In this document: in pieces, positions 1,621 to 2,072 of the stretch
Layout of the letters: every line of letters starts with the position of its first letter
Position numbering within the stretch: position 1 is the first letter of the stretch
Source of the DNA: a virus
Reading direction: 5' to 3' (one strand)
Virus genome (UHGV): UHGV-0229837
Length of the DNA stretch: 11,317 nt
Made by a program: the position numbers and the translations under genes
The notes under the pieces: generated by a model
The model's input: only the letters and a program-made list of their open reading frames with translations
Databases searched by the model: none
Told to the model about the DNA's origin: nothing

Positions 1621-1649
1621 TTTGCGGGGAAATCTTAGTTAAGTAGAAT
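1621..1649 (+). promoter_or_regulatory. Putative hok mRNA promoter (-10 TAGAAT at 1644-1649, weak -35 around 1621-1627)
   Basis: The -10 hexamer lies 5-7 nt upstream of GCGGGTGCTTGAGG (1654-1667), which matches the conserved 5' end of hok mRNAs as I recall them. Confidence 0.4.
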
Positions 1650-1702
1650 GACTGCGGGTGCTTGAGGCTATCTGCCTCGGGCATGAACACCAACGGCAGA
1701 TA

Positions 1703-1776
1703 GAGAAAAGCCCCAGTTAACATTACGCGTCCTGCAAGACGCTTAACATTAATCTGAGGCCATATCTATGCGACAC
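1703..1776 (-). ncRNA. sok: Sok-like antisense RNA (antitoxin of the hok/sok type I toxin-antitoxin system); ends approximate
   Basis: A minus-strand promoter sits just downstream (in + coordinates) and would start transcription near 1775, antisense to the mok start region. The minus-strand transcript can form a long imperfect hairpin followed by UUUUCUCU. Confidence 0.5.
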
Positions 1777-1827
1777 ATAGAGATTAGCCTCTTACGGACC
1801 GAAAGGTCAAGGAGAAGCAGGCTATGA
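1768..1827 (+). CDS. mok: mok-like leader ORF (19 codons) translationally coupled to hok
   Basis: ATG at 1768; stop TGA at 1825-1827 overlaps the hok ATG (ATGA). Upstream CAAGGAGAAGCAGGCTATG resembles the R1 hok/mok junction from memory. Confidence 0.4.
   Translation: MRHIEISLLRTERSRRSRL
1782..1810 (-). promoter_or_regulatory. Sok promoter on the minus strand (-35 TTGACC, 17-18 bp spacer, -10 TAATCT)
   Basis: Reverse complement of 1781-1810 reads TTGACCTTTCGGTCCGTAAGAGGCTAATCT; near-consensus sigma70 hexamers oriented antisense to the hok leader. Confidence 0.5.
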
Positions 1828-1979
1828 AGCAGCAAAAGGCGATGTTAATCGCCCTGATCGTCATCTGTTTAACCGTCATAGTGACGGCACTGGTAACGAG
1901 GAAAGACCTCTGCGAGGTACGAATCCGAACCGGCCAGACGGAGGTCGCTGTCTTCACAGTTTACGAACCTGAGGAGTAA
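1824..1979 (+). CDS. hok: Hok family host-killing toxin (51 aa, single transmembrane helix)
   Basis: Hand-translated: MKQQKAMLIALIVICLTVIVTALVTRKDLCEVRIRTGQTEVAVFTVYEPEE, a recognisable Hok/Gef-family sequence (N-terminal TM helix, conserved Cys, C-terminal YEPEE); under 60 aa so absent from the track. Confidence 0.9.
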   Translation: MKQQKAMLIALIVICLTVIVTALVTRKDLCEVRIRTGQTEVAVFTVYEPEE

Positions 1980-2028
1980 GAGACCCGGCGAGGGAGAAAT
2001 CCCTCGCCACCTCGGATGTGTCAGGCAT

Positions 2029-2043
2029 CCTCAATGCACCCGC
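2029..2043 (+). promoter_or_regulatory. fbi-like 3' element of hok mRNA, complementary to the 5' tac region (1654-1667)
   Basis: 3' CCTCAATGCACCCGC versus the reverse complement of 5' GCGGGTGCTTGAGG (CCTCAAGCACCCGC): a 14/15 match with one inserted base, the long-range fold-back pairing characteristic of hok mRNAs. Confidence 0.5.
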
Positions 2044-2049
2044 ACTTAA

Positions 2050-2072
2050 CCCGCTTCGGCGGGTTTATTTTA
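2050..2072 (+). terminator. Intrinsic terminator downstream of hok
   Basis: Stem CCCGC / loop TTCG / GCGGG followed by TTTATTTTAT. Confidence 0.6.

What the first reader, a model, noticed from the sequence alone, without database searches (positions are those of the whole stretch)
1621..2072. Apparently intact hok/sok/mok type I toxin-antitoxin module with conserved RNA fold-back architecture
Unlike the degenerate hokD of K-12 Qin, which is embedded in the relBE operon, this copy keeps all the expected parts: a Hok ORF; a 19-codon mok-like leader coupled by ATGA; a convergent near-consensus antisense promoter positioned to produce a Sok RNA of about 70 nt over the mok start; a 5' element GCGGGTGCTTGAGG that is nearly perfectly complementary to a 3' element CCTCAATGCACCCGC (tac/fbi pairing); and a terminator. 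A known system family, but the completeness suggests a functional addiction or abortive-infection module.
Basis: partly seen in the sequence, partly recalled or inferred. Interest (0 to 1): 0.5.

Follow-up and report, generated by a model that had tools for sequence, protein, structure and literature searches.

The report
Intact prophage hok/sok/mok toxin-antitoxin module
This is a complete-looking copy of the well-known hok/sok/mok killer-gene module (the hokD/hokW type), sitting in its usual slot in a Qin-like lambdoid prophage; about 70% of complete E. coli genomes carry it, so the finding is correct but ordinary.

Summary

**What is there**
- The Hok ORF (1824-1979) matches Pfam HOK_GEF.
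- The leader 1656-1826 matches Rfam RF01794 (101 bits).
- The 5' end (1656-1667) pairs with 2029-2041 in the predicted full-length fold (p about 1.0). This helix is kept across genera through compensatory changes.
- A 19-codon mok ORF ends in a TGA that overlaps the hok ATG.
- A convergent promoter and hairpin would give a Sok RNA of about 70 nt.

**How it compares with known copies**
- K-12 hokD keeps only 1810-2066.
- The module is 91% identical to hokW/sokW/mokW of phage 933W/Sp5, which has been shown experimentally to be a working type I TA system.
- At least 80% of the module is present in 3830 of 5426 complete E. coli genomes.

- The Sok promoter is not near-consensus (8 of 12 positions, 18-nt spacer).
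- Only 12 tac/fbi pairs are conserved.
- The addiction or abortive-infection role is unproven. The nearest studied homologue instead helps lysis at prophage induction.

**Most interesting by-product**
A 22-nt hypervariable island lies at the mok start and predicted Sok 5' tail. Pairwise difference there is 0.29, against 0.02-0.04 in the flanking sequence. The mok reading frame also varies between copies.

**Verdict:** interpretation supported, already known, low interest.

The parts
1622..1649 (+). hok promoter: -35 TTGCGG (1622-1627), 16-nt spacer, -10 TAGAAT (1644-1649)
   Evidence: Read from the sequence. The -10 is almost invariant in 69 unique related modules, while the -35 region varies. 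It falls below the threshold of the consensus scan. No transcript data.
1656..2072 (+). Predicted full-length hok mRNA (about 417 nt)
   Evidence: The Rfam model begins at 1656. The terminator is at 2048-2065. MFE is -171.1 kcal/mol, z = -7.98. The conservation profile puts the module boundaries at about 1640 and 2066.
1656..1667 (+). tac (translational activator element): pairs with fbi in the full-length RNA and with ucb in the truncated RNA
   Evidence: Paired with 2029-2041 at p 0.90-1.0. Pairs with 1708-1714 in the 65-nt 5' fragment and in one truncated fold. Twelve pairs are conserved, three of them with compensatory changes.
1658..1684 (+). Metastable 5' hairpin of the nascent transcript
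   Evidence: The first 30 nt fold into GUGCUUGAGGC/GCCUCGGGCAU at -18.8 kcal/mol. Corresponds to the metastable structure described for R1 (PMC9841398).
1708..1716 (+). ucb / anti-SD box (AAGCCCCAG)
   Evidence: In the full-length MFE, 1710-1716 pairs with the mok SD region 1754-1760. In 5' fragments it pairs with tac instead.
1756..1791 (+). Sok-target hairpin: mok SD GAGG(C) 1756-1760 pairs with dcb GCCUC 1787-1791; the inner stem carries the mok AUG; loop 1771-1775
   Evidence: Rfam consensus structure alignment. The GAGGC/GCCUC pairs are invariant in 25 diverse sequences. The hairpin is predicted for all 23 alleles tested and is more stable than shuffled inner sequence (negative z) in 22 of them, despite different sequences.
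1761..1782 (.). Hypervariable island (mok start / predicted Sok 5' tail / target loop)
   Evidence: Mean pairwise difference is 0.29, against 0.036 and 0.035 in the flanking 5' UTR and 0.024 at hok third codon positions. There are 20 alleles in 106 unique modules.
1768..1827 (+). mok-like leader ORF: 19 codons, with its TGA overlapping the hok ATG
   Evidence: The same 56-nt spacing and 19-codon ORF occur in L096 and in hokC-type loci L097 and L098. This allele is in about 800 of 5426 E. coli genomes.
1781..1810 (-). Sok promoter: -35 TTGACC (1810-1805), 18-nt spacer, -10 TAATCT (1786-1781)
   Evidence: Positionally homologous to the sokW promoter, whose mutation abolishes antitoxin activity in Sp5 (PMC8621323; alignment). 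The -10 overlaps dcb, as in R1. K-12 homology breaks exactly at 1810.
1704..1774 (-). Predicted Sok antisense RNA (69-71 nt): 13-nt single-stranded 5' tail, long hairpin, CUUUUCU
   Evidence: Fold of -29.5 kcal/mol, z = -5.57. Maps onto the 71-nt sokW annotated in 933W. All eight alleles examined give a G at the predicted +1. No transcript data.
1810..1814 (+). hok Shine-Dalgarno (AGGAG), partly sequestered in the local hairpin 1787-1818
   Evidence: In the MFE, 1812-1815 pair with 1790-1793. The inner stem 1797-1800/1805-1808 changes in other alleles (GACC/GGUC versus UGCC/GGCA and others) while remaining able to pair.
1824..1979 (+). hok toxin gene (HokD with A46V)
   Evidence: Pfam PF01848 at 78.6 bits. 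PHROG 251, 'MokW-like host killing'. 92% identical to HokW. Annotated as hokD in RefSeq relatives.
1987..2008 (+). 3' stem-loop expected to protect the processed (truncated) mRNA
   Evidence: Nine-pair hairpin in the MFE. The pair 1991-2004 is seen as A-U, G-U and G-C in relatives. Its role is inferred from R1.
2029..2041 (+). fbi (fold-back inhibitory element); bulged T at 2035
   Evidence: The bulge is C or T in relatives, with no effect on pairing.
2048..2072 (+). Intrinsic terminator of the hok mRNA
   Evidence: Seven-pair stem with a TTCG loop and a T-tract. Conserved in most relatives.

Best explanation
The region is a sequence-intact hokD/hokW-type hok/sok/mok type I toxin-antitoxin module. 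It is carried as a self-contained 'moron' (own promoter and terminator) in the nin region of a Qin-like lambdoid prophage of E. coli.

**Proposed mechanism** (inferred by homology with R1 hok/sok and Sp5 hokW-sokW)
1. A weak constitutive promoter makes a stable mRNA of about 417 nt.
2. While the RNA is nascent, its 5' end is locked in a metastable hairpin.
3. In the full-length RNA, the 5' tac element (1656-1667) pairs with the 3' fbi element (2029-2041), and the anti-SD box (1710-1716) covers the mok Shine-Dalgarno. Neither ribosomes nor Sok can bind.
4. Slow 3' trimming back to the 1987-2008 hairpin removes fbi. tac then re-pairs with the anti-SD box, and the mok SD moves into the target hairpin 1756-1791.
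5. The RNA now takes one of two routes.
   - The unstable Sok RNA of about 70 nt (1774 to about 1704, minus strand) binds through its 5' tail and the duplex is destroyed.
   - If Sok has decayed, ribosomes translate the 19-codon mok, open the hairpin that hides the hok SD, and terminate at UGA overlapping the hok AUG. Hok is then made.
6. Hok (51 aa) inserts into the inner membrane and kills or permeabilises the cell.

**Physiological trigger.** Most likely any stop in Sok supply. By analogy with hokW, this means prophage induction, where Hok would speed lysis. Loss of the prophage or a shut-off of host transcription are other possibilities.

**Shown here:** presence, homology, predicted folds and conservation of the elements.

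**Inferred:** transcripts, 3' processing, toxicity and trigger.
For: **Identity of the parts**
- Rfam RF01794 covers 1656-1826 end to end at 101 bits.
- Pfam HOK_GEF at 78.6 bits. PHROG 251, moron category.

**RNA structure**
- tac/fbi pairs at p about 1.0 in the full-length fold, and the SD of mok is paired with ucb.
- The metastable hairpin and the tac/ucb stem appear in 5' fragments.
- The tac/fbi helix is kept in Escherichia, Kluyvera, Citrobacter, Pantoea and Photorhabdus. Changes seen are U-A to C-G and G-C to A-U: 92% of cells are paired, against 28-58% for slid partners.
- The target hairpin is predicted in all 23 alleles tested and beats shuffled inner sequence in 22.

**Relation to studied systems**
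- 91% nucleotide identity to 933W hokW/mokW/sokW as annotated. Hok is 92% identical to HokW.
- hokW-sokW is experimentally a type I TA system. sokW is lost and HokW is made on RecA-dependent induction (PMC8621323).
- In R1, only the first 19 mok codons, up to the hok start, are needed (PMC9841398).

**Integrity and context**
- No private mutation falls in any element. The only near-private change is G2014.
- The position is fixed and co-oriented upstream of DUF968 (74 loci), RusA (47) and Q (27) among 120 viral contigs, with no exceptions.
Against: - No expression or toxicity data exist for this copy.
- The Sok and hok promoters each match only 8 of 12 consensus positions, and the scan did not call them.
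- The predicted truncated fold depends on the 3' end chosen. Only one of three trial ends gave the tac/ucb stem in the MFE.
- The 3' segments used in the covariation count were chosen by complementarity, and many sequences are closely related.
- Chromosomal hokA/B/C loci tested earlier gave no post-segregational killing or rifampicin activation.
- This mok allele (short, ATGA-coupled) has not itself been tested.
- In 933W the locus lies elsewhere in the genome and in a different orientation. The induction trigger may therefore not transfer.
Confidence: 0.88

Rival explanations
1. The module is sequence-complete but physiologically silent. Like the chromosomal hokA, hokB and hokC loci, it would be carried along in a largely defective prophage without ever releasing Hok.
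For: [quoted passage not shown]
- Promoters are only moderate consensus matches.
- The window's prophage relative in strain MLI121 has a frameshifted integrase and other pseudogenes.
- The mok allele is a frame-shifted short form.
Against: - All elements are strongly conserved across hundreds of prophages. The module has sharp conservation boundaries.
- The nearest studied relative is active from its native single-copy prophage position.
- R1 hok is lethal from a single chromosomal copy without Sok.
- The short mok retains exactly the required 19 codons.
Confidence: 0.2
2. Its main role is defence: an abortive-infection or exclusion module. It would kill the lysogen when an infecting lytic phage shuts off host transcription and Sok decays.
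For: - R1 hok/sok reduces T4 plating efficiency and plaque size (Pecota & Wood 1996, as cited).
- The mechanism (unstable antitoxin RNA, stable toxin mRNA) suits a transcription shut-off trigger.
Against: - No PADLOC model matches Hok.
- hok is not enriched near defence systems (bioRxiv 10.1101/2025.08.07.668861).
- The T4 effect was seen with a high-copy plasmid.
- The only direct study of a prophage copy found a pro-phage role, with earlier lysis and twice the phage release.
Confidence: 0.15
3. The fold-back complementarity and the leader ORF are chance features around an ordinary small membrane-protein gene.
For: Short ORFs and 12-14-nt complementarities do occur by chance. The promoter scan did not exceed its shuffled expectation in this region.
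Against: - Rfam hit at E = 1.5e-22.
- Duplex reached by 2 of 5000 shuffles and 0 of 3112 window-wide controls.
- Fold z = -7.98.
- Compensatory changes across genera.
- Annotated and tested homologues.
Confidence: 0.01

Closest known systems
hokW / sokW / mokW of Stx2 phage 933W and Sakai prophage Sp5 (Plunkett 1999 annotation, AF125520; Takada et al. 2021, PMC8621323)
   Same: - 91% nucleotide identity over 90% of the module. Hok is 92% identical.
- The tac, ucb, SD-mok, dcb, fbi and 3' hairpin elements are the same or near-identical.
- The Sok promoter is at the same place, and the Sok RNA is about the same size (71 versus 69-71 nt).
- Both lie in a lambdoid prophage.
   Different: - **mok:** in 933W, mokW is an in-frame 19-codon extension of hokW (70 aa, 57-nt spacing). 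Here a 2-nt deletion plus a 1-nt insertion gives 56-nt spacing and a 19-codon ORF that stops on the hok ATG.
- **Sok recognition:** the 22-nt Sok-tail/target island differs at about half its positions.
- **Downstream sequence:** 933W has different sequence after fbi and lacks the 2048-2065 hairpin found here.
- **Location:** the 933W locus sits near the right end of the genome, not in the nin region.
hok/sok/mok (parB) of plasmid R1, the paradigm of the family
   Same: - Same set of elements and the same predicted conformational logic: metastable hairpin; tac/fbi plus anti-SD closed form; tac/ucb plus SD/dcb open form. The Sok promoter -10 lies inside dcb and the mok SD is GAGG.
- The first 19 mok codons precede the hok start.
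- The Rfam model, which matches the window end to end, scores sequence and this structure together.
   Different: - The toxin is only about 44% identical (HokW versus Hok).
- R1 mok is a 70-codon ORF overlapping hok, whereas here it is 19 codons.
- Hairpin 2, which forms the Sok terminator stem on the other strand, carries an 18-nt insertion relative to the Rfam consensus.
- The module sits in a prophage, not a plasmid. Post-segregational killing has not been shown for this clade.
hokD (relF) of E. coli K-12 cryptic prophage Qin
   Same: - The toxin gene and 3' UTR are 98% identical over window 1810-2066, including fbi and the terminator.
- Same prophage type and neighbourhood (ydfU/DUF968, Q, lysis genes).
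   Different: - K-12 has relB-relE fused upstream. It lacks the hok promoter, tac, ucb, the mok start, the Sok gene and all but the first base of the Sok -35.
- The relBE-fused form is a minority: 3 of 80 sampled viral contigs.
hokC (gef) / mokC / sokC chromosomal loci of Escherichia species
   Same: - Hok is 78-80% identical.
- Same tac sequence, with fbi at the same distance after the stop codon. The hokC-type fbi reads CUUC where the window has CCUC, so one pair becomes a G-U wobble.
- Same mok start arrangement. In E. ruysiae and E. whittamii (L097, L098) the same 56-nt, 19-codon, ATGA-terminated mok occurs.
   Different: - Core-chromosome location rather than a prophage.
- The tac-to-hok distance is about 150 nt rather than 168 nt.
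- Different hairpin 2 sequence.

Membership tests
hok/sok/mok type I toxin-antitoxin family (Hok/Gef; Rfam RF01794) | Small hydrophobic Hok/Gef toxin ORF of about 50 aa | tested here: met
   PF01848 at 78.6 bits against a cutoff of 22, full profile 1-42. PHROG 251. RefSeq relatives are named HokD. NCBIfam Hok models score below their curated cutoffs: 45 bits against 73.
hok/sok/mok type I toxin-antitoxin family (Hok/Gef; Rfam RF01794) | Conserved hok mRNA leader (sequence plus secondary structure) upstream of hok | tested here: met
   RF01794 at 101.3 bits against a gathering score of 59. Model positions 1-157 match 1656-1826 on the + strand. The model is on the hok-mRNA strand: it starts at tac and ends at the hok AUG.
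hok/sok/mok type I toxin-antitoxin family (Hok/Gef; Rfam RF01794) | Long-range 5'-3' pairing (tac/fbi) that closes the full-length mRNA | tested here: met
   Pair probabilities 0.90-1.0. Duplex of -26.9 kcal/mol, reached by 2 of 5000 shuffles. Twelve pairs are conserved across 25 sequences from six genera, with compensatory changes at three pairs. Caveat: the 3' segments were picked by complementarity.
hok/sok/mok type I toxin-antitoxin family (Hok/Gef; Rfam RF01794) | Alternative pairings: anti-SD (ucb) with the mok SD in the closed form; tac with ucb and mok SD with dcb in the open form; metastable 5' hairpin | tested here: met
   All four pairings appear in predicted folds of the appropriate RNA lengths and in the Rfam structure alignment. 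The ucb-SD and SD-dcb pairs never vary, so covariation says nothing about them. These are predictions only.
hok/sok/mok type I toxin-antitoxin family (Hok/Gef; Rfam RF01794) | mok leader ORF with its own SD, whose translation reaches the hok initiation region | tested here: met
   GAGG, then 8 nt, then ATG 1768. The ORF has 19 codons and its stop overlaps the hok ATG. In R1, translation up to the hok SD/start is necessary and translation beyond it is dispensable. Coupling in this allele is untested.
hok/sok/mok type I toxin-antitoxin family (Hok/Gef; Rfam RF01794) | Cis-encoded antisense Sok RNA with its own promoter, complementary to the mok translation initiation region | tested here: inconclusive
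   The promoter-like hexamers, G start, 13-nt tail, hairpin and U-tract are present and homologous to the tested sokW. The promoter is below the scan threshold. No transcript evidence can be obtained with these tools.
hok/sok/mok type I toxin-antitoxin family (Hok/Gef; Rfam RF01794) | 3' processing of the hok mRNA to a translatable truncated form | not testable with these tools
   Only the protective hairpin 1987-2008 and its covariation can be shown.
hok/sok/mok type I toxin-antitoxin family (Hok/Gef; Rfam RF01794) | Hok toxicity, and its neutralisation by Sok | not testable with these tools
   Shown for HokW/sokW, whose toxin is 92% identical. Not shown for this copy.
Post-segregational killing / addiction module | Killing of cells that lose the element; activation by rifampicin | not testable with these tools
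   Negative for chromosomal hokA/B/C in earlier work. Unknown for prophage hokD/W-type loci.
Catalogued anti-phage defence (abortive infection) systems | A component protein matches a model of a known or candidate defence system | tested here: not met
   No PADLOC-DB hit for Hok or its neighbours at E <= 0.01. The literature reports no enrichment of hok near defence systems. Functional exclusion cannot be tested here.

The most novel reading that the evidence does not exclude
The 22-nt island at the mok start (1761-1782) would be the specificity determinant of Sok-hok recognition. It encodes the predicted single-stranded 5' tail of Sok on one strand and the target stem-loop on the other.

On this reading the island is kept diverse among lambdoid prophages by selection: several discrete alleles at similar frequencies on otherwise nearly identical modules. 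Co-resident or superinfecting phages would then be unable to neutralise each other's Hok.

The mok reading frame (in-frame, +1 or a short ATGA-terminated form) would be free to drift, because only ribosome passage over the first 19 codons matters.
Probability: 0.3. Interest if true: 0.4.

Novelty: already known. Interest (0 to 1): 0.15.

Why it matters
As a finding it matters little. It is a correctly recognised copy of a textbook system that RefSeq already labels hokD, and its phage relatives were annotated in 1999 and tested in 2021.

It has some practical value:
- Genome annotation pipelines mark only the toxin ORF. In the records examined, nothing is annotated over the mok/sok region, so the RNA parts have to be read by hand.
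- K-12 is an atypical, truncated reference for hokD.

The side observations give a cheap, testable handle on a broader question: how many near-identical type I toxin-antitoxin modules can coexist in poly-lysogenic E. coli without cross-talk? Those observations are an allelic hypervariable Sok-recognition island and three interchangeable mok frames.

Tried and rejected
1. **Loss of the U-turn motif as a defect.** I suspected that the 2-nt deletion after the mok ATG removes the YUNR U-turn motif (CUGA in 933W) and so cripples Sok binding. I rejected this as a defect signal because several other major alleles also lack a YUNR in that stretch.

2. **Consensus promoter scan.** It reported neither the hok nor the Sok promoter. 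Both were placed by hand and by homology instead.

3. **RNAalifold on a MAFFT alignment of 25 leader segments.** It recovered only the invariant GAGGC/GCCUC and CC/GG pairs, with no covariation, because the variable inner stem is misaligned. I replaced it with allele-by-allele folding.

4. **Folding the truncated mRNA.** Only the 1656-2020 form gave the tac/ucb stem as the MFE. Ends at 2012 and 2028 gave other 5' partners, so the open conformation is not robustly predicted without knowing the real 3' end.

5. **Covariation at the base of hairpin 2.** The changes seen (positions after GCCCC against positions before GAGG) cannot be credited to the ucb-SD helix. Those pairs exist in both conformations.

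6. **Do co-resident copies avoid sharing an island allele?** The sampled loci contain too few same-genome sets. The only count available is that 80 of 804 genomes carry the window allele twice, so sharing is not excluded. Left open.

7. **TadA-like local hairpin around the TACG at Tyr47.** Not significant: z = -0.2.

8. **Transcriptional interference as the trigger.** The idea was that early rightward transcription interferes with the convergent Sok promoter, which would explain loss of Sok on induction. The fixed co-orientation fits it. However, in 933W the locus lies near the right end of the genome, in a different orientation, and Sp5, where the loss was measured, carries the same locus. 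The idea stays speculative.

9. **PADLOC and NCBIfam.** They added no support for a defence role or an equivalog-level name.
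Full report
**Setting**

The window is part of a Qin-like lambdoid prophage of E. coli.
- Window 140-8827 is 99.2% identical to the chromosome of strain MLI121.
- In that strain the region runs from cI/cro-like and replication genes through hokD, DUF968, RusA and antiterminator Q, then two tRNAs and the lysis genes, to the terminase.
- Pfam and PHROGs confirm DUF968, RusA, Q and a holin in the window.

**Checking the observation**

- **Hok ORF:** 1824-1979, 51 aa. It matches Pfam HOK_GEF over the whole profile at 78.6 bits and PHROG 251, 'MokW-like host killing', in the moron category.
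- **Leader ORF:** begins at ATG 1768, 8 nt after GAGG (1756-1759). It runs 19 codons to a TGA (1825-1827) that overlaps the hok ATG.
- **Complementary ends:** GCGGGTGCTTGAGG is at 1654-1667 and CCTCAATGCACCCGC at 2029-2043. They are complementary apart from a bulged T at 2035.
- **Terminator:** an intrinsic terminator follows at 2048-2065 with a T-tract.
- **Antisense promoter (minus strand):** TTGACC (1810-1805), 18 nt, TAATCT (1786-1781). A start about 7 nt further on, at 1774, would give an RNA with a 13-nt single-stranded 5' tail, a long hairpin and CUUUUCU, ending near 1704-1706.

This is far beyond chance.
- Rfam RF01794 matches 1656-1826 end to end at 101.3 bits, E = 1.5e-22.
- The 417-nt RNA folds with z = -7.98 and the antisense RNA with z = -5.57.
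- The 5'/3' duplex of -26.9 kcal/mol is reached by 2 of 5000 shuffled 3' UTRs and by none of 3112 equally spaced 14-mer/downstream pairs in the window.

Two corrections are needed.
- The antisense promoter matches 8 of 12 consensus positions and was not reported by the consensus scan, so it is not 'near-consensus'.
- Only the twelve pairs 1656-1667 with 2029-2041 are conserved in relatives. The outer two are not, which fits a transcription start at about 1656, where the Rfam model begins.

The Rfam family is called 'sok', but its model lies on the hok-mRNA strand: it starts at tac and ends at the hok AUG. The + strand hit therefore marks the hok leader, not the strand of Sok.

**Comparison with K-12**

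- K-12 Qin matches the window only from 1810 to 2066, at 98%. Upstream of that point K-12 has relE-relB.
- K-12 therefore lacks the hok promoter, tac, the anti-SD box, the mok start and the Sok gene. The breakpoint falls on the first base of the Sok -35 hexamer. K-12 keeps fbi and the terminator.
- The truncated form is the exception. At least 80% of 1600-2090 is present in 3830 of 5426 complete E. coli genomes, at a median of two places per genome, and is annotated as hokD.
- Only 3 of 80 sampled viral contigs have the relBE-fused form.

**RNA architecture**

The predicted folds reproduce the R1 model summarised in PMC9841398.
- **Full-length RNA:** tac pairs with fbi at probability 0.90-1.0. 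The box GCCCCAG (1710-1716) pairs with CUGAGGC (1754-1760), covering the mok Shine-Dalgarno.
- **Nascent RNA:** the first 30 nt form a -18.8 kcal/mol hairpin, the metastable structure.
- **5' fragment:** the first 65 nt form the tac/ucb stem.
- **Open form:** the Rfam consensus structure, which the window fits with few non-canonical pairs, is the open form. GAGGC (1756-1760) pairs with GCCUC (1787-1791) around an inner stem that carries the mok AUG.
- **hok SD:** the hok Shine-Dalgarno (1810-1814) is partly paired in a local hairpin, 1787-1818. This hairpin lies entirely inside the mok ORF, so ribosomes translating mok must open it.
- **Truncated RNA:** the fold depends on the assumed 3' end. 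Only one of three trial ends gave the open 5' stem as the MFE.

**Comparative evidence**

I collected four sets of related loci:
- 80 loci from viral contigs;
- 47 from one-genome-per-species contigs;
- 120 more by a DNA pattern;
- annotated phage records.

*Module boundaries.* A conservation profile delimits the module sharply. Variability is high before about 1640 and after about 2066, and low in between. The -10 TAGAAT, tac, ucb and fbi are almost invariant.

*The tac/fbi helix.* It is retained in Escherichia hokC-type loci, Kluyvera, Citrobacter, Pantoea and Photorhabdus, always 45-56 nt after the stop codon.
- Changes seen are U-A to C-G (9 sequences), G-C to A-U (9 and 1) and several G-U intermediates.
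- 92% of cells are paired, against 28-58% when partners are slid by one to three columns.
- Caveats: the 3' segments were chosen by complementarity, and the Photorhabdus copies are related to one another.

*Other hairpins.* The 3' hairpin 1987-2008 shows A-U, G-U and G-C at one pair. The small hairpin before the hok SD changes sequence while remaining able to pair.

*Private changes.* Within its own allele group the window has no private change in any element. The only nearly private base is G2014, between the 3' hairpin and fbi.

**The mok frame**

- In most of this clade the mok ATG lies 57 nt before the hok ATG and in frame with it. 'Mok' is then Hok with 19 extra residues, as annotated for mokW in 933W.
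- The window allele has a 2-nt deletion just after the ATG and a 1-nt insertion in the downstream hairpin. This gives 56 nt and a stop on the hok ATG.
- The same 56-nt, 19-codon arrangement appears in L096 and in the hokC-type loci of E. ruysiae and E. whittamii. Spacings of 55 or 58 nt give a +1 overlapping ORF.
- The peptide is therefore not conserved; the initiation site and the first 19 codons are.
- The window allele is common. Its exact 48-nt version is in about 800 of 5426 genomes, with nothing annotated over it.

**What it most likely does**

The closest studied relative is hokW-sokW of Sp5/933W, at 91% nucleotide identity and 92% toxin identity. Takada et al. (PMC8621323) reported the following.
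- HokW is toxic.
- sokW, expressed from its own promoter, neutralises it, and mutating that promoter removes the protection.
- RNase III and Hfq contribute partly.
- On RecA-dependent induction sokW disappears and HokW appears in the inner membrane about an hour before the endolysin.
- Deleting the locus delays growth arrest and halves phage release.

I therefore take the R1-type mechanism as the working model, with cessation of Sok supply as the trigger. Induction-linked help with lysis is the best-documented role for a prophage copy. Addiction and phage exclusion remain possible but unsupported here.
- Chromosomal hokA/B/C gave no post-segregational killing.
- Hok has no PADLOC model.
- The T4 exclusion by R1 hok/sok was seen at high copy number.

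**Genomic slot**

In 120 viral contigs the module always lies upstream of, and on the same strand as, DUF968 (74 loci), RusA (47) and Q (27), with no exception. It is a fixed moron in the nin region, co-oriented with the genes around it. In 933W the locus is elsewhere, near the right end of the genome.

**Side observation: a hypervariable island**

Positions 1761-1782 are hypervariable. They cover the mok start, the target stem-loop and, on the other strand, the predicted Sok 5' tail.
- Mean pairwise difference is 0.29. The flanking 5' UTR gives 0.036 and 0.035, hok third codon positions 0.024 and the 3' UTR 0.09.
- There are 20 alleles among 106 unique modules. Five are roughly equally frequent.
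- The target hairpin is predicted for all 23 alleles tested and is more stable than shuffled inner sequence in 22 of them.
- Predicted 14-nt Sok tails bind their own targets at -21 to -23.5 kcal/mol and foreign targets at -3 to -15.6 kcal/mol. Cognate pairs are perfect by construction.

This pattern suggests specificity classes that would keep co-resident modules independent. I could not test whether copies in the same genome avoid sharing an allele, and 80 genomes carry the window allele twice. I found no description of this island in the papers searched, but the search was narrow.

**Verdict**

The system is already known, and this copy is one of thousands of near-identical ones. Interest is low. 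The island and the mok frame plasticity are the only leads worth a follow-up.

Noticed in passing
window 1761-1782: Hypervariable island at the mok start, target loop and predicted Sok 5' tail. Pairwise difference is 0.29, against 0.02-0.04 in flanking UTR and at hok synonymous positions. There are 20 alleles, five of them at similar frequency. Predicted non-cognate tail/target duplexes are much weaker than cognate ones.
   Followed up: partly
window 1768-1827; loci L003, L004, L025, L096-L098: The mok reading frame is not conserved in the hokC/D/W clade. A 57-nt spacing is in frame (Mok = Hok + 19 aa), 56 nt gives a 19-codon ORF stopping on the hok ATG, and 55 or 58 nt gives a +1 overlapping ORF. 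The 56-nt form recurs in hokC-type loci of other Escherichia species.
   Followed up: yes
window 1656-1826 (+): The Rfam family named 'sok' (RF01794) matches the hok-mRNA strand: it starts at tac and ends at the hok AUG. A hit therefore gives the strand of hok, and the Sok RNA lies on the opposite strand inside it.
   Followed up: yes
window 1810; L002 (K-12) 6289: The K-12 relBE-hokD rearrangement breakpoint falls on the first base of the Sok -35 hexamer. The same fused form occurs in a few other contigs (L062, L066, L088).
   Followed up: partly
window 1962-1965: The Tyr47 codon TAC is followed by G, giving a TACG context. A preprint states that hokD mRNA is A-to-I edited at the codon equivalent to HokB Cys46, recoding Tyr to Cys. 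A local hairpin around the site is not significant. The A46V change (GCT to GTT) lies immediately 5' of this codon.
   Followed up: partly
window 2014: G here where 24 of 25 loci with the same mok/Sok allele have T. It lies between the 3' protective hairpin and fbi, near the expected 3' processing region. Its effect is unknown.
   Followed up: no
window 1348-1566 (+): A 72-aa hydrophobic ORF lies just upstream of the module. It has no Pfam, PHROG or PADLOC match and is not annotated in the RefSeq relative. The module-proximal part of this upstream stretch that was sampled (about 1610-1640) is variable between prophages.
   Followed up: partly
window 5116-5191 and 5296-5372 (+): Two tRNA genes lie just downstream of the Q antiterminator gene. 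One has anticodon CAT: ARAGORN calls it Met, while the RefSeq relative calls it Ile. The other is tRNA-Arg (TCT).
   Followed up: no
window 6069-6258 (+); 9528-9912 (+); 11079-11277 (+): Three further Rfam hits: sRNA STnc100 (132 bits); a cspA-type thermoregulator 5' UTR with a cold-shock protein gene at 9673-9885 (114 bits); and IS009 inside the tail-fibre assembly gene (212 bits).
   Followed up: no
loci L132-L251; window 1621-4972: In 120 viral contigs the hok module is always upstream of, and co-oriented with, DUF968, RusA and Q. This is a fixed moron slot in the nin region. In 933W it lies at a different genomic position.
   Followed up: yes
window 6284-6619 (-): ORF of 111 aa corresponding to the gene annotated as anti-adapter protein IraM in the RefSeq relative (PHROG 4407, unknown function). 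It lies on the opposite strand between Q and the lysis genes.
   Followed up: no
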